Source of the DNA: a virus | Lineage: Duplodnaviria; Heunggongvirae; Uroviricota; Caudoviricetes | Reading direction: 5' to 3' (one strand) | Length of the DNA stretch: 13,007 nucleotides | IMG/VR virus record: IMGVR_UViG_3300029162_000078 | Span: 1-13,007 of that record | Part shown: positions 3,517-13,007 of the stretch, piece by piece | How positions within the stretch are numbered: position 1 is the first letter of the stretch | Layout: each line of letters opens with the position of its first letter | Notes under the pieces: generated by a model | What the model saw: the letters and a program-made list of their open reading frames with translations, nothing else | The model's database searches: none | What the model was told of the DNA's origin: nothing | Position numbers and translations under genes: made by a program

Positions 3517-4073
3517 TTGCGTAACTCCGATAACTCGTTAAAACGTTCCATAAACATCCCGTAGGCATGGCCCGGTGCCTGTGGAATCACTTTGAACATC
3601 TCTGTTGCCGGGATACCTTCCAGTACAGGCCAGAAAGAGCCATCATCAAGCCCGAGATCGCGGCGTTCGGTTGCCAGCATAATGAGATCGGCATATTTCA
3701 CTGGCGTGCTCATAACAGGAGGTAACCCGTATTTCTCACGTATTACGGCGTCTATTTTTTCTTCCATCCGTTTATAGTCAGGAAGAAGTCGTTTCAGTGG
3801 TGCGGGGATGTCCTGGCAATATGCTTCTGTTGCATCATGCATTAAAGCTTCAAAAGCAAATTCCTGTGGCACCAGCTGGCTGCAAAGCACCGCATGTTGG
3901 GCGACACTGTAGAAGTGTGAAAGATGTCCTGCAAAGCGACAGATATTTGAAAGGGAAATGCCAGCATAATGCTGGGGTATGTTTCTGATGCGATGAAAGT
4001 GGTGGATTCTGCCGTATCGGATGCCGCCAGGCTGTTGCAGGGGGATATCTCGGTACTTCTGCCGCCGCCATCG
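3507..4073 (-). CDS. HD-superfamily phosphohydrolase, YfbR/YfdR-like 5'-deoxynucleotidase; no canonical start in frame (probable 5'-damaged or truncated gene)
   Basis: The track ORF 3507..3890 begins at a GTG, but the same frame is open upstream to a TGA at 4074-4076. That upstream stretch reads ...GIRYGRIHHFHRIRNIPQHYAGISLSNICRFAGHLSHFYSVAQHAVLCSQLVPQEFAFEALMHDATEAYCQDIPAPLK..., giving the H...HD metal-binding pattern of YfbR-type nucleotidases. There is no ATG/GTG/TTG between the stop and the first His motif. Confidence 0.55.
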   Translation of the reverse strand, partial: RWRRQKYRDIPLQQPGGIRYGRIHHFHRIRNIPQHYAGISLSNICRFAGHLSHFYSVAQHAVLCSQLVPQEFAFEALMHDATEAYCQDIPAPLKRLLPDYKRMEEKIDAVIREKYGLPPVMSTPVKYADLIMLATERRDLGLDDGSFWPVLEGIPATEMFKVIPQAPGHAYGMFMERFNELSELRKCA

Positions 4074-4778
4074 TCAGGCAAAAATTTCGTTGAGCAGGTG
4101 CAGAAAATGTGGCGTACCGGGAAACGCCTTTATGGTAACGCCAGCGACCTGGTCACCATGATCAAAACGCTTTCCGGTGTCAGCCTCGGCAGTGATCTGC
4201 AACCGCGCGGCGTCTGGAAAACGGACAGTAAAACCACCGCTACGGCGACGCAGCAGCGTAACGTGGTTGCCAGCACCCTTCGTACGACCGCAATCAGCGA
4301 AGCGGCGTATGCCGTCACCCGATTGCCTGCGCCAACAACTTCCGCGGTGATGCAGAATGCCGCAGTGGGGCAGGCAACAACAGCTGCACAGAGCACCGGC
4401 TGGCCTTCCGTCACGCATCCGGCACTGAACAATGCACCGGCGGTGAAAAACACGGTTGACCTGCCGACGTGGGAAGAACTGACTGACATTCGCGACACAC
4501 TGAATACGGCAATTGATAAGGAGTTGTCCCGTACAACCAGTGATGCGCTGTTTCTGGCGCTGCGCCGGGTGAAAGCAGATCTGAATGCGGATATCAACAC
4601 GCGCCTTGAACAGTCTGCACGGATCATTCAGCGCACACCGGATGAGGTTTTACCCGCGCTGGTGCTGGCGGCGACCTGGTTTGATAACGCGGCGCGTGAC
4701 GCGGACATTATTCGGCGTAATGCCATTACGCATCCCGGCTTTGTGCCGGTGATCCCTCTGAAGGTGCCAGTGCAATGA
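3969..4778 (+). CDS. Mu gp43 (N)-like DNA circulation protein, C-terminal fragment (N-terminal half missing)
   Basis: 269-aa ORF (frame open from 3951) whose stop overlaps the start of the next baseplate gene (ATGA at 4775-4778). Position and context match the gene upstream of gp44 in Mu-like tail modules. Far shorter than a full-length protein, and its 5' end runs into the antisense HD gene. Confidence 0.55.
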   Translation: MLGYVSDAMKVVDSAVSDAARLLQGDISVLLPPPSSGKNFVEQVQKMWRTGKRLYGNASDLVTMIKTLSGVSLGSDLQPRGVWKTDSKTTATATQQRNVVASTLRTTAISEAAYAVTRLPAPTTSAVMQNAAVGQATTAAQSTGWPSVTHPALNNAPAVKNTVDLPTWEELTDIRDTLNTAIDKELSRTTSDALFLALRRVKADLNADINTRLEQSARIIQRTPDEVLPALVLAATWFDNAARDADIIRRNAITHPGFVPVIPLKVPVQ

Positions 4779-5866
4779 ACGACAATGTCACGCTACGGGT
4801 AAATGGCCGGGAGTGGAATGGCTGGACATCGGTGCGCATCGGTGCCGGTATTGAACGGCTGGCGCGGGATTTCAGTGTGGAGATCACCCGCCAGTGGCCG
4901 GGTGATGAGGGTATCACCACGCTTCAGCCGCGCATTAAAAACGGTTCAAAAGTGGAGGTGCTGATTGGTGATGAGCTGGTGATCACCGGCTGGGTGGAGG
5001 CGACGCCCGTTCGTTACGATGCCCGTTCGGTCAGCACCGGTATTGCCGGACGCAGTCTGACCGCTGACCTGATTGACTGTGCAGCCGAACCGACACAGTT
5101 TAACGGACGCTCGCTGGTGCAGATAGCGCAGGCGCTTGCTGCGCCTTTCGGCATTGAGGTGGTGAACAACGGTGCGCCGTCGGGTGTTATTCCTGACGTC
5201 CAGCCCGATCACGGCGAAACGGTGATTGAGGTGATCAACAAAATACTCGGTCAGCAGCAGGCACTGGCTTACGACGACCCGCACGGCAGGCTGGTGATTG
5301 GCGGTATTGGCTCAACGCGGGCACATACCGCGCTGGTACTTGGGGAAAACATCCTTTCCTGTGATACGGAGAAGAGTATCCGGGAGCGGTTTTCAGTTTA
5401 CCAGGTGGCGGGGCAGCGTGCCGGAAACGATGATGATTTCGGTGAGGCCACCACCACCGCGCTGCGGGCCCGCACAGAGGATGCATTTATTGCCCGTTAC
5501 CGTCCGATGTATATCAGGCAGACAGGGCAGGCTACGGGGGCAGGCTGTATTGCCCGTGCGGACTTTGAAGCCCGACAACGGGCGGCGCGGACGGATGAAA
5601 CCACCTATGTGGTGCAGGGCTGGCGACAGGGTAACGGTACGCTGTGGCAGCCCAACCAGCGGGTGATTGTCTTTGATCCGGTCTGTGGTTTCGACAATAC
5701 CGAACTGCTTGTTTCGGAAGTCACGTTTACTCAGGACCAGAACGGCACCCTGACGGAAATCCGTGTCGGCCCACCTGATGCTTATCTGCCTGAACCCGAA
5801 GCCCCGGCGCGCGGAAAAAGAAAAAAGCCAGAGTACAGGAGGACCCGTTCTGATGAGGACGATTGA
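4775..5866 (+). CDS. Baseplate hub protein, Mu gp44 (P)-like / phage late control D family
   Basis: 363-aa ORF, translationally coupled to neighbours. Gene order gp43-gp44-gp45-gp46-gp47-gp48 matches the Mu N-P-Q-V-W-R baseplate cluster. GC-rich with Lys/Arg-rich C-terminus. Confidence 0.75.
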   Translation: MNDNVTLRVNGREWNGWTSVRIGAGIERLARDFSVEITRQWPGDEGITTLQPRIKNGSKVEVLIGDELVITGWVEATPVRYDARSVSTGIAGRSLTADLIDCAAEPTQFNGRSLVQIAQALAAPFGIEVVNNGAPSGVIPDVQPDHGETVIEVINKILGQQQALAYDDPHGRLVIGGIGSTRAHTALVLGENILSCDTEKSIRERFSVYQVAGQRAGNDDDFGEATTTALRARTEDAFIARYRPMYIRQTGQATGAGCIARADFEARQRAARTDETTYVVQGWRQGNGTLWQPNQRVIVFDPVCGFDNTELLVSEVTFTQDQNGTLTEIRVGPPDAYLPEPEAPARGKRKKPEYRRTRSDEDD

Positions 5867-6401
5867 AGCCATGCAGCGACAACTCCTCGGCCTGATTGGG
5901 CGGGCAGTGGTGAAAAGCATCAGTGCCGCCACGAAATGTCAGACCGTGGATGTGTCTCTGATTGCCGGTGAACCCAAAGCCGGGGTTGAACATCTTGAAC
6001 CCTACGGTTTTACCTCAAGGGCAAACAGCGGTGCGGAAGCGGTGGTGTTGTTTCCGGATGGCGACCGTTCTCATGCGGTGGTTGTTACGGTGTCGGACCG
6101 GCGCTACCGCCTGAAAGGGCTGCAGACGGGTGAGGTGGCTGTCTATGACGATCAGGGGCAGTCCGTGACGCTGACCCGGGAGGGGATCGTGGTGGACGGT
6201 GCAGGTAAAACGATCACGTTTCGCAATTCACCTAAAGCACGTTTTGAAATGGACCTGGAAGTGACAGGACAGGTGAAAGACCTGTGCGACTCCGGCGGCA
6301 CCACCATGTCAGCGATGCGGCTTGCCTATAACGGGCATCGTCACAGAGAGAACGGTCAGGGCAGTAACACCGACAAACCTGATAAAGCGATGGAGGCATG
6401 A
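5853..6401 (+). CDS. Baseplate assembly protein V / spike, Mu gp45-like
   Basis: ATG at 5853 preceded by AGGAGG (5837-5842). Protein MRTIEAMQRQLLGLIGRAVVKSISAATKCQTVDVSLIAGEPKAGVEHLEPYGFTS... is typical of gpV-type baseplate spike proteins. The track ORF begins at 5763, but the RBS supports 5853. Confidence 0.75.
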   Translation: MRTIEAMQRQLLGLIGRAVVKSISAATKCQTVDVSLIAGEPKAGVEHLEPYGFTSRANSGAEAVVLFPDGDRSHAVVVTVSDRRYRLKGLQTGEVAVYDDQGQSVTLTREGIVVDGAGKTITFRNSPKARFEMDLEVTGQVKDLCDSGGTTMSAMRLAYNGHRHRENGQGSNTDKPDKAMEA

Positions 6402-6826
6402 TGGAACTGTGGCTGACGGTGAACGGTAAACGCACCTGCGCCAGCGCACCGCTGGATCCGCTGACCCGCGCCGTGGTGATTTCCCTGTTTACCTGGCGGC
6501 GGGCGGAGCCTGATGACAACGCCGACGTCCCGATGGGATGGTGGGGGGATACCTGGCCTGCGGTACAGAATGACCGTTACGGCTCCCGACTGTGGCTGCT
6601 TCAGCGCAGCAAACTGACCAATCAGCTGGTGCAGACGGTAAGGGGGTATATCCGCGAATGCCTGCAATGGATGATTGATGACGGCGTGGTGTCCCGTATT
6701 GATCTGGATATCCGCCGCACCGGGATTAATGAACTGGGTAACAGTATCACTCTCTGGCGTCGTGACGGACCGGTAATGATTTCTTTTGATGATCTGTGGA
6801 GTGCGATAACGCATGGCGGACAGTGA
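6398..6826 (+). CDS. Mu gp46-like baseplate protein (GP46 family)
   Basis: 142-aa ORF. Start ATG overlaps the gp45 stop (ATGA). Size and position match the Mu V / gp46 family. Confidence 0.7.
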   Translation: MMELWLTVNGKRTCASAPLDPLTRAVVISLFTWRRAEPDDNADVPMGWWGDTWPAVQNDRYGSRLWLLQRSKLTNQLVQTVRGYIRECLQWMIDDGVVSRIDLDIRRTGINELGNSITLWRRDGPVMISFDDLWSAITHGGQ

Positions 6827-7871
6827 ATTTCAGCGCCCGACGCTGGCAGAAAATATCAGTATGCTCCGTAACGATTTATTCGCCAGGCTGGACGTCAGCG
6901 ACACGCTCCGGCGCATGGATGAAGACGTGCGGGCAAAGGTGTATGCGGCGGCGCTGCATACGGTTTACGGTTACATCGATTATCTGGCAATGAACATGCT
7001 GCCTGACCTGTGCGATGAGTCCTGGCTGGCGCGACATGCTGCGATGAAACGGTGTCCGCGCAAGGGGGCCACGACTGCCAGCGGGTATATGCGCTGGGAA
7101 GGCGTCAGCGATGGCCTGAAGGTGACCGCCGGGAGTGTTATTCAGCGCGATGACCTGGTTCAGTACACGGCAACTGCCGATGCAACCAGCGCCGGTGGTG
7201 TCCTGCGCGTGCCGATCGCCTGCTCAAGTGCAGGCGCGGTCGGTAACGCTGACGACGGTACGTCATTAATCCTGGTCACGCCGGTTAATGGTCTGCCGTC
7301 TTCCGGCGTGGCAGACACTCTGACAGGTGGATTTGATACTGAAGATCTGGAAACGTGGCGCGCCCGCGTCATTGAGCGGTATTACTGGACTCCTCAGGGC
7401 GGGGCTGACGGGGACTATGTTGTCTGGGCTAAAGAAGTGCCCGGCATTACCCGCGCATGGGCATACCGTCACTGGATGGGAACGGGGACTGTCGGTGTGA
7501 TGATTGCCGGCAGTGACCTGATTAATCCGATTCCGGAAGAATCAACGGAAACGGCGGCAAGACAACATATCGGGCCACTGGCCCCGGTGGCAGGCTCTGA
7601 TTTGTATGTGTTCAGGCCGGTGGCGCATACGGTGGATTTTCATATCCGTGTGACGCCGGATACACCGGAAATACGGGCTGCCATCACCGCGGAGTTGCGT
7701 TCGTTCCTGCTGCGTGATGGTTATCCGCAGGGAGAACTGAAGGTGTCGCGTATCAGTGAAGCGATTTCCGGTGCGAACGGGGAATACAGCCATCAGTTGC
7801 TTGCACCGGCGGAAAATATCTCCATTGCAAAAAATGAACTGGCGGTTCTGGGGACGATTTCATGGACGTGA
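6813..7871 (+). CDS. Baseplate J-like protein, Mu gp47 (W)-like
   Basis: 352-aa ORF overlapping the gp46 3' end. Size and position match baseplate J family proteins of Mu/e14-type modules. Confidence 0.8.
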
Positions 7872-7980
7872 CAAACGATGATTACATCCGCCTGTTGTCG
7901 GCACTGCTGCCGCCCGGTCCGGCGTGGTCAGCCAGCGATCCGGCGATTGCCGGTGCGGCACCGTCATTAACCCGCGTTCA
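7862..7980 (+). pseudogene. Truncated Mu gp48-like tail protein (DUF2313 family), N-terminal stub of about 30-40 codons
   Basis: Start ATG overlaps the gp47 stop. N-terminus [22 protein letters not shown] matches the conserved start of gp48/YmfQ-type proteins. The frame then runs antisense into the 3' end of tfa (stop at 7981-7983 on the minus strand), so the rest of the gene is deleted. Confidence 0.5.
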
Positions 7981-8418
7981 TCAGCGTGCGGATGCCGGAG
8001 GCGTAGGCCATTCAATATCTGGCGTACCGGAAGTATCGACCAGTTCCAGTGCGTCCAGATAATCCAGCCACAAATTATATTGCGCCAGTTCCTCACCTTT
8101 CAGGCGACCAATCGCCGCTTTACCAAGCCATTGCTTTCTGTTTATGTATTCGTTGATCTGATTAATCAATTGCTGCTTTTCCAATTCGGCTGCGGCAATT
8201 TGTTCCTCATGAGTTGGCGGTGGAATATCAATCCATGCAGGCATTCCGTCGATGACACCTCTGTATTTTCCTTCTGGTGCTTCCTTCATAAATTCGGCAG
8301 CAACAGTGTCGTCAATTTCGATTCCATCACCGGGCCATTCGCCGGATTCCTGATAAGCGATTTTAAGCTCCACAGGGAAAAACGCATTTTTATCGGCACT
8401 GAAAATATATTTCTGCAT
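7981..8418 (-). CDS. tfa: Tail fibre assembly protein (Tfa; U'-type copy of an invertible segment)
   Basis: 145-aa ORF with AGGA-type RBS. C-terminus ...[18 protein letters not shown] matches the conserved ...VDTSxxPDIEWP... end of E. coli Tfa proteins. Lies directly downstream of the tail-fibre variable fragment on the same strand. Confidence 0.75.
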
Positions 8419-8420
8419 TT

Positions 8421-8819
8421 CTACCGTCCTATCGAAACATAACTGAATCTGTATTGCTGTGAGATGTCACTGGTTGCCACACGCCACGCTGAATTACTGA
8501 TATGTTCAAAATTTACAGACAAAACCTGCGGGGCAGGACTCGACGGGTCTGACTGAACGGCATCAGACATAACACTGACTGAAACCATCGGCTGATTAGG
8601 GAATGGTATAGGGAAGTGTCCACTGATAAAGCGGGTCGTGTTTCCTGAAAAAGTGCCAAACTGAACAATATATCCACCTGGTAGCCTGAACCATCCCGAA
8701 CCAGAAGCGAATGCTCCCATATCCGGTATCTGATTATCTCCTGTGCCCACATCCCTTTTCGCCGCTTCTCCCAAACCAACGTTTATGAAAATGCAGAAAT
8801 AACGAGCAAATGGCATCAT
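8421..8819 (-). pseudogene. Tail fibre C-terminal variable segment (S'v-type), no functional start; remnant of the invertible segment
   Basis: Open frame ending TAG at 8421-8423, immediately upstream of tfa. The reading frame passes through the crossover site at 8766-8791, where in intact Gin/Pin systems the constant N-terminal tail-fibre part would be joined. No constant-part gene exists in this window. Confidence 0.5.
8766..8791. other. Din-family invertase crossover site (pix/gix/hix-like), right boundary of the former invertible segment
   Basis: TTCTCCCAAACC-AA-CGTTTATGAAAA: 26 bp with imperfect dyad symmetry and the AAACC-NN-GGTTT-like core of hix/gix/cix sites (recalled consensus). Located 55 bp upstream of the pin start, where the invertase-proximal site lies in Mu G, P1 C and e14 P segments. 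Confidence 0.5.
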
Positions 8820-8845
8820 TCCTGCTTTTGTCAGGGAGATCTACC

Positions 8846-9400
8846 ATGCTTATTGGCTATGTACGTGTGTCAACAAATGACCAGAACACAGATCTACAAC
8901 GTAATGCGCTGAACTGTGCAGGATGCGAGCTGATTTTTGAAGACAAGATAAGCGGTACAAAGTCCGAAAGGCCGGGACTGAAAAAACTGCTCAGGACATT
9001 ATCGGCAGGTGACACTCTGGTTGTCTGGAAGCTGGATCGGCTGGGGCGCAGTATGCGGCATCTGGTCATTCTGGTTGAGGAGTTGCGCGAACGTGGCGTT
9101 AATTTTCGCAGCCTGACGGATGCTATTGATACCAGCACACCGATGGGGCGTTTTTTCTTTCATGTGATGGGTGCCCTGGCTGAAATGGAACGAGAACTGA
9201 TTGTTGAACGAACAAAAGCTGGACTGGAAGCTGCTCGCGCACAGGGACGAATTGGTGGACGTCGTCCCAAACTTACACCAGAACAATGGGTGCAGGCCGG
9301 ACGATTAATTGCATCAGGCGTTCCTCGCCAGAAGGTGGCGATCATCTATGATGTTGGTATATCGACACTGTATAAGAAGTTTCCGGTCGGAGATAAATGA
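8846..9400 (+). CDS. pin: Serine recombinase, DNA invertase of the Pin/Gin/Cin/Hin (Din) family
   Basis: ATG at 8846 with AGGGAG RBS gives a 184-aa protein: MLIGYVRVSTNDQNTDLQ... (catalytic Ser in the YVRVST motif), resolvase core, C-terminal HTH (...GVPRQKVAIIYDVGISTLYKKF). The track ORF starts 12 codons upstream at 8810. Confidence 0.9.
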   Translation: MLIGYVRVSTNDQNTDLQRNALNCAGCELIFEDKISGTKSERPGLKKLLRTLSAGDTLVVWKLDRLGRSMRHLVILVEELRERGVNFRSLTDAIDTSTPMGRFFFHVMGALAEMERELIVERTKAGLEAARAQGRIGGRRPKLTPEQWVQAGRLIASGVPRQKVAIIYDVGISTLYKKFPVGDK

Positions 9401-9440
9401 AACCGTAGCACGTCGTATGCAAGAAGATCGTGCTGCGGTT
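9399..9440 (+). repeat. Copy A of a roughly 40-bp imperfect palindromic repeat; probable bidirectional terminator between pin and the GIY-YIG gene
   Basis: GAAACCGTAGCACGTCGTATGCAAGAAGATCGTGCTGCGGTT: arms ACCGTAGCACG / CGTGCTGCGGT (10 of 11 complementary) around a 16-nt loop, followed by TTTATGCTTAT. Sits between two convergent genes. Confidence 0.5.
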
Positions 9441-9460
9441 TATGCTTATCACTTAAAGAC

Positions 9461-10330
<870 letters not shown>

Positions 10331-12362: not shown

Positions 12363-13007
12363 ATGGCTACTGCAGAGCAGATCAAAGCTTTATTGAAAAG
12401 CCACGTTGATCGTGATGATCAGCGTTTCTTTTCTATTGCTTTGCAGGTGGCAGCTAAGGAAGCAAGGCAAGGTCATCATAAGCTTGCTAATGATATAAAA
12501 AACTTAGTTGATAAAAATCAGAAAACAACGAGTTCTGTAGGTTTAGTTGAAAAACGACTTACACCATTTGTTAAGCAGCCTGATGGTGATCTTAAGGGGT
12601 TACTTGAGCAAACGAACAAGCCAGTACATCTTCAAGATCTGGTGATTTCTGGAAGCGTTAGGGAAAGATTGAATCAGGTTCTGCTTGAACAAAAACAGAA
12701 AGATAAACTTTCTGAGTTTGGGCTTATTCCAAGAAGAAAAATTCTTTTCACTGGTCCTCCCGGTACTGGTAAGACAATGTCCGCATCAGTCATTGCTACA
12801 GAGTTAAAGCTACCACTTTATACAGTCGTCTTAGATAATCTAATCACTCGCTATATGGGTGAAACTGCAGCTAAGCTGCGTTTAATTTTTGACCACATAC
12901 GGCAAACAAGAGCTGTATATTTTTTTGACGAGTTCGATGCTATAGGAACTCAGCGTGGCGCTCAGAATGACGTTGGAGAAATTCGGGTAATGACTCCAAC
13001 TTATTGA
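12363..13007 (+). CDS. Classic-clade AAA+ ATPase with N-terminal helical domain; ORF ends about 30 codons after Walker B (truncated, frameshifted, or cut by the window)
   Basis: Walker A ILFTGPPGTGKT, then YMGETAAKLRLIF and Walker B AVYFFDEFDAIG with the following TQRG motif. The ORF stops (TGA 13005-13007) before the expected NQLL...DG sensor region. The +2 frame over the last about 20 nt reads ...NDSNLL, which resembles that expected continuation. Preceded by about 460 bp of AT-rich non-coding DNA. Confidence 0.7.
   Translation: MATAEQIKALLKSHVDRDDQRFFSIALQVAAKEARQGHHKLANDIKNLVDKNQKTTSSVGLVEKRLTPFVKQPDGDLKGLLEQTNKPVHLQDLVISGSVRERLNQVLLEQKQKDKLSEFGLIPRRKILFTGPPGTGKTMSASVIATELKLPLYTVVLDNLITRYMGETAAKLRLIFDHIRQTRAVYFFDEFDAIGTQRGAQNDVGEIRVMTPTY

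What the first reader, a model, noticed from the sequence alone, without database searches (positions are those of the whole stretch)
7930..8846. Locked remnant of an invertible tail-fibre segment: intact Pin, one crossover site, nothing left to invert
Seen in sequence: the gp48 N-terminal stub runs straight into the 3' end of tfa, and only the inverted tfa/S'v half-segment plus the pin-proximal crossover site (8766-8791) remain. The constant tail-fibre gene, the forward Sv-U pair and the second crossover site are absent. Established knowledge: Din invertases (Gin, Cin, Pin, Hin) act on paired inverted crossover sites and can complement each other in trans. Inference: this orphan Pin can no longer switch its own segment but may still act on invertible segments of other prophages in the same genome. 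A weak crossover-like sequence (about 7961-7986, CCGTCATTAACC-CG-CGTTCATCAGCG) sits at the deletion junction.
Basis: partly seen in the sequence, partly recalled or inferred. Interest (0 to 1): 0.5.

Follow-up and report, generated by a model that had tools for sequence, protein, structure and literature searches.

The report
Deletion-locked e14-type invertible tail-fibre segment
A recent 1.8-kb deletion in a decayed E. coli prophage removed one of the two flip sites of a switchable tail-fibre cassette, leaving an intact invertase gene with nothing of its own to flip; this is ordinary prophage decay of a well-known system.

Summary
Draft-genome relatives with no base differences from the window in the compared flanks (5810-7996 and 7993-9400) still carry the whole e14-type P segment. 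They show that the window lost 1,783 bp between codon 45 of the Mu-gp48/YmfQ gene and the last codons of the inverted tail-fibre assembly gene. The break lies at a 4-bp microhomology (TGCC, 7993-7996).

- **Lost:** most of ymfQ, the constant tail-fibre part, the distal crossover site, and the forward Sv-tfa pair.
- **Kept:** 782 bp of the segment (tfa', S'v), one 26-bp crossover site (8766-8791, identical to the K-12 e14 pin-proximal site), and a full-length Pin.

A sister isolate has the same segment flipped, so the system was active shortly before the deletion.

The junction lies outside it, so it played no part.

The junction is identical in every carrying contig I compared (six loci; 24 carrying contigs were read). 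It is absent from 5,426 complete E. coli genomes. That fits one recent event in one lineage.

Action of Pin on other segments has published precedent (PinQ/PinR, Fin, PinE) but cannot be tested here. Low interest: a new instance of a known kind.

The parts
6813..7871 (+). Baseplate J / Mu gp47-like gene. It is the last intact tail gene before the deletion.
   Evidence: Pfam Baseplate_J 1.6e-52.
7862..7996 (+). N-terminal 45 codons of the YmfQ / Mu gp48-like gene. The ORF reads on through antisense tfa' to a stop at 8062, giving a 66-aa junk fusion.
   Evidence: No differences from intact ymfQ of L013 over the compared stretch up to 7996. The intact 194-aa protein carries PF10076 Phage_Mu_Gp48. 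Translations were compared.
7993..7996 (.). Deletion junction: the 4-bp microhomology TGCC shared by both parental sequences. 1,783 bp of the ancestral locus are missing here.
   Evidence: Three-way alignments of window, left parent and right parent. Coordinates come: window up to 7996 equals L013 up to 3368, and window from 7993 equals L013 from 5148.
7961..7986 (.). It is native ymfQ sequence and not a recombination site.
   Evidence: 13 of 26 identities to pix; site score 5.3 against 29.2 for the real site; rank 5 of 12,982 windows; 133 windows match pix at least as well; central dinucleotide CG. The same stretch is present in intact ymfQ: identical over the displayed 7960-7986 in L013, one mismatch in L002.
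7997..8778 (.). Surviving 782 bp of the roughly 1,822-bp invertible segment, from the deletion junction to the centre of the remaining crossover site.
   Evidence: Site positions in L013 are 4099-4124 and 5921-5946. The same stretch lies in the opposite orientation in L020.
7981..8418 (-). tfa', the tail-fibre assembly gene of the surviving cassette (145 aa). The deletion changed only its C-terminus, VQAR* to SAR*.
   Evidence: Pfam Caudo_TAP 3.3e-32. Comparison with the 146-aa intact protein.
8421..8819 (-). S'v, the alternative tail-fibre C-terminal cassette. It forms an ORF of 132 aa (131 from the second ATG) that starts outside the segment next to pin. This is the same layout as K-12 stfE/StfE2.
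   Evidence: Pfam Gp53-like_C 1.2e-8 over residues 45-132. The N-terminus MMPFARYFCIFINVGLGE resembles K-12 MPFACYFFIFINVGLGE. After an in-silico flip it reads in frame with the constant fibre part, and that flipped junction is found in 55 complete E. coli genomes.
8766..8791 (.). The single remaining 26-bp Pin crossover site (pin-proximal), with central dinucleotide AA at 8778-8779.
   Evidence: Unique in the window. Identical to K-12 e14 L010 6606-6631. The orientation breakpoint between L013 and L020 falls at 8765-8789.
8846..9400 (+). pin, a Din-family serine DNA invertase of 184 aa, intact.
   Evidence: Pfam Resolvase 1.1e-51 and HTH_7 4.8e-12. 95% identical to K-12 PinE and 99% to Combat11I9 PinE. 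The identical protein sits next to complete and flipped segments in other isolates.
9461..10234 (-). Context only: a PD-T4-3 (GIY-YIG) single-gene anti-phage defence gene directly downstream of pin.
   Evidence: PADLOC PDLC04031 2.6e-140, full length. Pfam LEM-3_GIY-YIG.

Best explanation
The region is the remnant of an e14-type P segment, a Din-family invertible tail-fibre switch, in a defective prophage with a Mu-like tail module integrated at thrW.

The ancestral layout was: gp47, gp48/YmfQ, tail fibre (constant part, distal crossover site, Sv), tfa, inverted tfa', inverted S'v, proximal crossover site, pin.

**The deletion.** One 1,783-bp deletion joined codon 45 of ymfQ to the last codons of tfa' at a 4-bp microhomology (TGCC). 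I infer replication slippage or another illegitimate recombination, not Pin. It removed the constant fibre part, the distal site and the forward Sv-tfa pair.

**What follows from it.** Serine invertases of this family need two inverted sites plus the Fis-bound enhancer on one supercoiled DNA molecule. The remaining site is therefore inert, and the surviving tfa'/S'v cassette is frozen in the orientation next to pin.

**Pin itself.** Pin is unaltered because the deletion is very recent. Whether selection also keeps it cannot be told. If the genome holds another invertible segment with its own enhancer, Pin could flip it in trans.
For: **Shown**
- Loci L013, L014 and L022 have no differences from the window in 5810-7996 and in 7993-9400, and they carry the complete two-site segment.
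- Locus L020 has 100% and 99.97% identical flanks but the segment in the opposite orientation, with the breakpoint at the crossover site. The 797-bp cassette itself is 99.75% identical. The switch was therefore working in the immediate ancestry.
- The junction shows the TGCC microhomology, and both parental sequences are visible on either side.
- There is only one crossover site in the window and in up to 20 kb of sister contigs, against two in every intact relative.
- The remaining site is identical to the K-12 e14 pin-proximal site.
- Pin is full length with catalytic Ser9. It also has the invertase-specific residues K46, K47, R50 and Q150, R153, L154, which correspond to Hin K47, R48, K51 and Q151, R154, L155. 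Basis: the sequence read against PMC3798978.
- Its one difference from Combat11I9 PinE (A149V) aligns with Hin E150, where an alanine substitution keeps full activity.
- The junction is identical in all six independent contigs I compared. The junction-specific Tfa protein is indexed in 42 collection blocks, and 24 carrying contigs were read.

**Inferred**
- The slippage mechanism.
- That the single site is inert.
- That the Fis enhancer is retained. The first 200 nt of pin are 98.5% identical to K-12 pinE, but the Fis sites were not located.
Against: - Nothing contradicts the structural account.
- Pin activity and expression were not measured, and the promoter scan was no better than chance.
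- The enhancer was not identified directly.
- Trans activity depends on other segments in a genome I cannot see.
- The junction is absent from all 5,426 complete E. coli genomes, so no finished genome of this lineage was available for a whole-genome check.
Confidence: 0.9

Rival explanations
1. Pin itself made the deletion, by site-specific recombination that used the weak crossover-like sequence in ymfQ (7961-7986) as a quasi-site.
For: That 26-mer ranks 5th of 12,982 windows on a crossover-site score and lies within about 10 bp of the junction. Quasi-site recombination is known for Cin (from my own knowledge, not checked here).
Against: - The sequence is unaltered ymfQ and is present in intact relatives.
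- Identity to ymfQ continues 22 bases beyond its central dinucleotide, so no strand exchange happened there.
- Its centre is CG, whereas the real sites have AA/TT.
- The partner sequence at the tfa' 3' end has no site-like character: junction-centred 26-mers score -19 to -30.
- 133 windows match pix at least as well by simple identity.
Confidence: 0.02
2. The junction is an assembly artefact: a collapse of a mixed-orientation invertible region in short-read or metagenome assemblies.
For: The window is 100% identical to a metagenome SPAdes contig (L004). Two sister contigs end inside the S'v cassette, which shows that assemblers struggle in this region.
Against: - The same junction, base for base, occurs in all six independent contigs I compared, from five NCBI isolate assemblies and one ENA metagenome.
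- One flank (ymfQ codon 45) is unique sequence, and the shared word is only 4 bp. That is far below any assembler k-mer.
Confidence: 0.02
3. The remnant is kept by selection as a host-beneficial module. The pin-proximal ORF (S'v) would be a locked-on StfE2-type protein that blocks phage adsorption, sitting in a defence island with PD-T4-3 and IetA.
For: - K-12 StfE2 consists of the stfE start next to pin plus a gp53-like C domain. It was reported to block T2 adsorption and to protect against other phages when produced (PMC12529663).
- The window ORF has that architecture: a similar 17-18-aa N-terminus, then Gp53-like_C at residues 45-132.
- The deletion left this ORF and tfa' essentially whole.
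- PD-T4-3 and IetA flank the region.
Against: - The C-terminal domain is a different allele, with no BLASTP similarity to StfE2 beyond residue 26.
- There is no PADLOC hit for it and no promoter signal above chance.
- In the compared stretches (5810-7996 and 7993-9400) no mutation has accumulated since the deletion, so the intactness needs no selection.
- The independent sister deletion in L017 truncates S'v while keeping pin. The two events therefore do not converge on preserving this ORF.
Confidence: 0.08

Closest known systems
P segment and PinE of cryptic prophage e14 (E. coli K-12): ymfQ, stfP/ycfK, tfaP, tfaE, stfE, pinE
   Same: - Same gene order and the same Mu-gp48-like gene upstream.
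- Identical 26-bp pin-proximal crossover site.
- Pin is 95% identical to PinE.
- The conserved spacer between the site and pin encodes the same short N-terminus for the pin-proximal ORF.
- The defence gene downstream of pin is McrA in e14 and PD-T4-3 here.

   Different: - Integrated at thrW rather than icd.
- Different Sv and tfa alleles.
- Above all, the distal site, the constant stfP part and one Sv-tfa pair are deleted, so no inversion is possible. e14 still inverts (PMC4272514, PMC12529663).
Mu G segment with Gin, and P1 C segment with Cin (Din-family tail-fibre switches)
   Same: A serine invertase next to a segment that carries two opposed Sv-U (tail fibre C-terminus plus assembly protein) cassettes. 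The segment is bounded by 26-bp inverted sites, one of them inside the fibre gene (general knowledge; introduction of PMC12529663).
   Different: - Only half of the segment and one site are left here.
- The prophage cannot form particles, so host-range switching is moot.
- I did not compare the Gin or Cin sequences directly.
Invertases that act away from their own locus: PinQ (Qin) and PinR (rac) of K-12, and Fin of Salmonella Fels-2
   Same: An intact invertase gene in a decayed prophage with no invertible DNA next to it. PinQ/PinR invert the e14 P segment in trans, and Fin inverts the H segment (PMC12529663).
   Different: - PinQ is only 38% identical to PinE. The Pin here is a PinE-type enzyme that lost its substrate very recently.
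- Whether a trans substrate exists in this genome is unknown.
Sister remnant in GCA_012617865.1 (locus L017)
   Same: The same element and the same exact Pin protein. An independent deletion of about 1.7 kb at a 6-bp overlap also leaves one crossover site plus an intact pin.
   Different: That deletion happened in the flipped state. It removes the pin-proximal site and truncates S'v, and it keeps ymfQ, the constant fibre part and the distal site.

Membership tests
Din-family (Gin/Cin/Hin/Pin) serine DNA invertase | Small serine recombinase: resolvase catalytic domain with the nucleophilic serine near residue 9-10, plus a C-terminal HTH_7 domain | tested here: met
   Pfam Resolvase 1.1e-51 and HTH_7 4.8e-12. 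The N-terminus MLIGYVRVS9TNDQ is conserved with K-12 PinE.
Din-family (Gin/Cin/Hin/Pin) serine DNA invertase | Invertase-specific residues for activation by the Fis/enhancer: a basic helix B (Hin K47, R48, K51) and DNA-binding-domain helix 1 (Hin Q151, R154, L155) | tested here: met
   Pin has K46, K47, R50 and Q150, R153, L154 at the corresponding positions. I aligned the sequence to Hin by hand. The Hin residues and their significance come from PMC3798978.
Din-family (Gin/Cin/Hin/Pin) serine DNA invertase | Catalyses inversion | not testable with these tools
   Indirect only: the identical protein sits next to the same segment in both orientations in different isolates (L013 versus L020).
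Functional invertible tail-fibre segment (e14 P / Mu G / P1 C type) | Two 26-bp crossover sites in inverted orientation | tested here: not met
   One site at 8766-8791. The next best candidate scores 8.6 against 29.2, whereas intact relatives have two sites of 29 or more.
Functional invertible tail-fibre segment (e14 P / Mu G / P1 C type) | A constant 5' part of the tail-fibre gene that reads into the segment | tested here: not met
   Deleted: L013 3369-5151 is missing, which includes the 248-aa fibre gene at 3822-4568.
Functional invertible tail-fibre segment (e14 P / Mu G / P1 C type) | Two opposed cassettes, each a variable fibre C-terminus plus an assembly protein | tested here: not met
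   Only tfa' and S'v remain. The forward Sv-tfa pair (tfa of 197 aa in L013) is gone.
Functional invertible tail-fibre segment (e14 P / Mu G / P1 C type) | A recombinational enhancer with two Fis sites on the same DNA as the crossover sites | tested here: inconclusive
   The first 200 nt of pin are 98.5% identical to K-12 pinE. That this is where the family's enhancers lie is from my own knowledge. A naive search for Fis-like 15-mers 48 bp apart found none.
Remnant derived from such a segment | Collinear with, and near-identical to, an intact segment on both sides of a single gap | tested here: met
   No differences from L013, L014 and L022 in 5810-7996 and 7993-9400, with a single 1,783-bp gap.
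StfE2-type adsorption-blocking protein (Kirigo et al. 2025) | ORF that starts next to pin outside the segment, with a short conserved N-terminus followed by a gp53-like C-terminal domain | tested here: met
   compared with PMC12529663.
StfE2-type adsorption-blocking protein (Kirigo et al. 2025) | Sequence similarity of the C-terminal domain to StfE2, and protection against phage | tested here: not met
   There is no BLASTP alignment beyond residue 26. Protection itself cannot be tested here.

The most novel reading that the evidence does not exclude
The deletion did more than break a switch. It fixed the pin-proximal ORF (short StfE-type N-terminus plus a gp53-like receptor-binding-type domain) and its chaperone tfa' in a permanently assembled state. 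That ORF would then act as a constitutive StfE2-like adsorption blocker inside a thrW defence island (PD-T4-3, IetA). Meanwhile the freed Pin would serve as a trans-acting switch for P segments in other prophages of the genome.
Probability: 0.07. Interest if true: 0.45.

Novelty: new member of a known kind. Interest (0 to 1): 0.15.

Why it matters
This is mainly a clean, base-resolved example of how a phage host-range switch decays. Intact, flipped and two independently deleted versions of the same element all exist among near-identical isolates, so the order of events can be read directly.

It adds one more case of an invertase left without a substrate of its own. That class has gained some interest since PinQ/PinR were reported to flip the e14 segment in trans as an anti-phage response. 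For annotation, it warns against reading the small 'phage tail protein' and 'tail fiber assembly protein' genes next to pinE as a working switch.

It opens no new question by itself.

Tried and rejected
- **Pin-mediated deletion through the weak site at 7961-7986.** Rejected on the three-way alignments and site scores.
- **Assembly artefact.** Rejected because the junction is identical in six independent contigs.
- **Junction in complete genomes.** I looked for it in 5,426 complete E. coli genomes to obtain a whole genome of the lineage, and found none. The prophage's other private junction near 3959 is also absent. I therefore could not scan the rest of the genome for other invertible segments.
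- **Promoter and terminator scan of 7800-9500.** Four promoter-like sites against 2.0 +/- 1.4 expected, so it is uninformative about expression of pin or S'v.
- **Naive search for two Fis-like 15-mers 48 bp apart in the pin 5' region.** None found. This is not a valid test of the enhancer.
- **PADLOC on S'v, tfa' and Pin.** No hits.
- **Rfam on the whole window.** Only tRNA-Thr.
- **Literature search with Gin/Cin/Pin/Hin as terms.** It returned only unrelated papers.
- **Tools left unused.** I did not use the large protein-homology or structure tools, because the question was settled by DNA comparison.
Full report
**What is in the window**

From left to right the window holds:
- proA, then tRNA-Thr (thrW, 1369-1444).
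- A tyrosine integrase on the minus strand (1459-2622) and a few early-region ORFs, including a truncated yfdR.
- The C-terminal 269 aa of a Mu gp43-like DNA-circularisation protein.
- A Mu-type baseplate row: gp44, gp45, gp46 and gp47/Baseplate_J (Pfam hits).
- The finding itself (7930-8846), then pin.
- A GIY-YIG gene, a FlxA-like gene and a truncated AAA ATPase.

No head, sheath, tube or tape-measure genes are present, so the prophage cannot make particles.

A phage-collection record of the same build is vB_EcoM-689R6. It has lambdoid early genes, Mu gp39-48-type tail genes, a side tail fibre gene, an invertase 96.7% identical to this Pin, and McrA. In other words it is an e14-like phage.

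**Checking the observation**

- The ymfQ/gp48 ORF starts at 7862.
- tfa' (7981-8418, minus strand) hits Caudo_TAP at 3e-32.
- The S'v ORF (8421-8819, minus strand) hits Gp53-like_C at 1e-8.
- Pin (8846-9400) hits Resolvase and HTH_7.
- The 26-bp site TTCTCCCAAACCAACGTTTATGAAAA lies exactly at 8766-8791. It is unique in the window even with 3 mismatches allowed, and none of 200 shuffles gave a match.
- It is identical to the pin-proximal site of K-12 e14 (L010 6606-6631). The 16-bp core that PMC12529663 gives for the e14 inverted repeats matches it at 15 of 16 bases (read against the sequence).

**The ancestral state and the deletion**

I looked up contigs that encode exactly this Pin protein. 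That produced loci from independent isolates that keep the whole switch.

In L013, L014, L015, L018 and L022 the order is:
1. gp47
2. a 194-aa Phage_Mu_Gp48 protein
3. a 248-aa tail fibre gene
4. a 197-aa tfa
5. an inverted 146-aa tfa'
6. an inverted 132-aa Gp53-like_C ORF
7. pin

L013, L014 and L022 have no differences from the window in 5810-7996 and in 7993-9400.

The alignment breaks once. Window up to 7996 equals L013 up to 3368, and window from 7993 equals L013 from 5148. Thus 1,783 bp are missing. The four bases TGCC (7993-7996) are present in both parents. The same picture appeared earlier against SZQ1, at 97% identity.

The lost piece holds:
- the last three quarters of ymfQ;
- the constant fibre part;
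- the distal crossover site (L013 4099-4124);
- Sv and the forward tfa;
- the last four codons of tfa'.

The tfa' C-terminus changed only from VQAR* to SAR*. What survives of the roughly 1,822-bp segment is window 7997-8778, or 782 bp.

**Evidence that the switch was working**

L020 has flanks 100% and 99.97% identical to the window but carries the tfa'/S'v cassette (99.75% identical) in the opposite orientation. The change of orientation falls at 8765-8789, which is the crossover site.

I also built the flipped junction in silico: constant fibre part, hybrid site, then S'v. It reads in frame. It is found at 96.7-99.5% identity in 55 complete E. coli genomes. So S'v is a genuine alternative fibre C-terminus, and this Pin and site combination inverted in the immediate ancestry.

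**Only one site is left**

A position-weight score built from the half-sites seen in the comparison loci gives:

| Sequence | Score |
|---|---|
| 8766-8791 in the window | 29.2 |
| Next best in the window | 8.6 |
| Each of the two sites in every intact relative | 29 or more |

The sister contigs with the deletion, up to 20 kb long, have at most this one site. The score was trained on those same sites, so the high values are partly circular. The absence of a second site does not depend on that: one search found no second credible site within 9 mismatches (the three other hits have exactly 9, and one recurs at the same place in all relatives).

**The weak crossover-like sequence**

The stretch 7961-7986 matches pix at 13 of 26 positions and scores 5.3, rank 5 of 12,982 windows. 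By simple identity, 133 windows do at least as well.

- It is unaltered ymfQ sequence, also present in the intact relatives.
- Its central dinucleotide is CG.
- Identity to ymfQ continues for 22 bases past that centre.
- 26-mers centred on the real junction score -19 to -30.

The deletion is therefore not a Pin product. A 4-bp microhomology points to slippage or other illegitimate recombination. That last step is inference.

**Is Pin intact?**

- It has 184 aa and is 95% identical to K-12 PinE and 99% to Combat11I9 PinE.
- Ser9 is present.
- I aligned it by hand to Hin, using the residues that PMC3798978 describes as uniquely conserved in DNA invertases. It has K46, K47, R50 (Hin K47, R48, K51) and Q150, R153, L154 (Hin Q151, R154, L155).
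- Its only difference from Combat11I9 PinE, V149, aligns with Hin E150. An alanine substitution there keeps full activity (Table 1 of that paper).
- The same V149 protein sits beside complete and flipped segments, so it is not a post-deletion lesion.
- The first 200 nt of pin are 98.5% identical to K-12 pinE. From my own knowledge, this is where the family's Fis-dependent enhancer normally lies. I could not locate the Fis sites themselves.

**Real, single and recent**

- The Tfa protein with the junction-specific C-terminus is indexed in 42 blocks of the assembly collection, and 24 carrying contigs were read.
- Six loci were fetched, from five NCBI isolate assemblies and one ENA metagenome. 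All carry a 201-bp junction stretch identical to the window, always at proB-proA-thrW.
- The window is 100% identical to the ENA contig.
- No complete E. coli genome among 5,426 has the junction.
- Neither the retained tfa'-S'v-site-pin stretch (7993-9400) nor 5810-7996 has any substitution relative to intact relatives.

The deletion is thus one recent event in one lineage, and an intact Pin needs no selective explanation.

**A second, independent deletion**

L017 is identical to the flipped form (L020) up to a point inside S'v. It then jumps, at a 6-bp overlap, to just upstream of the pin start codon. This removes the pin-proximal site, both tfa genes and the other Sv. It keeps ymfQ, the constant fibre part, the distal site and pin.

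Substrate-less Pin genes therefore arise repeatedly in this element. The two events do not preserve the same parts, which argues for neutral decay.

**What it does now**

Established knowledge (PMC3798978) is that Hin-type invertases act only within an invertasome. That complex is made of two site-bound dimers and the Fis-bound enhancer on one supercoiled molecule, and wild-type enzyme is chemically inactive without it. It follows (inference) that the lone site is inert and the cassette is frozen.

Action in trans is well precedented:
- PinQ/PinR, which flip no DNA next to their own genes, invert the e14 P segment.
- Fin inverts the Salmonella H segment.
- PinE inverts the H and Mu G segments (PMC12529663).

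Whether this genome offers a substrate is unknown. As background only, 2,928 of 5,426 complete E. coli genomes have a pin-like match, and 1,272 have one covering at least 80% of the gene.

**A less ordinary reading**

PMC12529663 reports that the ORF starting next to pinE, when joined by inversion to a gp53-like C-terminal domain (StfE2, 125 aa), blocks T2 adsorption. The window's pin-proximal ORF has that architecture, and the deletion spared it together with tfa'. It sits beside PD-T4-3 (PADLOC 2.6e-140) and near a truncated IetA.

Against this reading:
- Its C-terminal domain shows no similarity to StfE2 beyond residue 26.
- It has no PADLOC hit.
- No promoter signal stands out.
- The L017 deletion destroys the ORF.

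I rate the reading as unlikely.

**Comparison and verdict**

The Pin enzyme is a member of the Din-family invertases on every feature I could test from sequence. The surrounding DNA is a remnant of an e14-type P segment. It fails three defining features of a functional segment: two sites, a constant fibre part and two cassettes. It should therefore be filed as a derived remnant and not as a switch.

The trans-action idea is reasonable, already known in kind, and untested here. The weak-site suggestion is wrong.

Novelty is low: a new instance of a known kind. Interest 0.15.

Noticed in passing
window 9461-10234 (-): The GIY-YIG gene directly downstream of pin is a full-length PD-T4-3 single-gene anti-phage defence gene (PADLOC 2.6e-140). 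It occupies the place that McrA holds in e14.
   Followed up: partly
window 12363-13007 (+); L004 4721-6056: An IetA-type AAA ATPase (PADLOC 1.9e-50) stops after 214 aa. In sister contig L004 an IS1 sits immediately beyond it. Sister L005/L019 has the full 328-aa IetA followed by a partner gene. One defence system is therefore broken by IS1 in this sub-lineage.
   Followed up: partly
L017 4981-6002 (GCA_012617865.1): A second, independent deletion of about 1.7 kb in the same element, made in the flipped orientation at a 6-bp overlap. It removes the pin-proximal crossover site and truncates S'v, but again leaves one site and an intact pin.
   Followed up: yes
L020 1849-3693 (GCA_018177785.1) versus L013: Near-identical loci carry the segment in opposite orientations. 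This is natural evidence of inversion at the 26-bp sites for exactly this Pin allele.
   Followed up: yes
window 5802-5805: A run of four C where five sister loci and all intact relatives have five. It shifts the last codons of the gp44-like baseplate gene (363 aa instead of 359). It is seen only in the window and the ENA metagenome contig, so it may be an assembly error or a private mutation.
   Followed up: partly
window about 3890-3970: A second lineage-private deletion junction. A truncated yfdR (5'-deoxynucleotidase) is joined to the C-terminal 269 aa of the gp43-like DNA-circularisation gene, which removes all late, head and tail-shaft genes. No complete E. coli genome spans this junction. 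Intact-segment relatives have the full 442-aa gp43.
   Followed up: partly
window 8465 and 8621 (ends of L009 and L008): Contigs of two sister assemblies end inside the S'v cassette. This could mean a second copy of the cassette elsewhere in those genomes, which would be a candidate substrate for Pin in trans.
   Followed up: no
window 8765-8819 (-): The N-terminus of the pin-proximal ORF (MMPFARYFCIFINVGLGE) is encoded by the crossover site and the spacer between it and pin. It is short and hydrophobic, and it is conserved with K-12 stfE. Whether it is a real targeting sequence or a by-product of conserved regulatory DNA is open.
   Followed up: no
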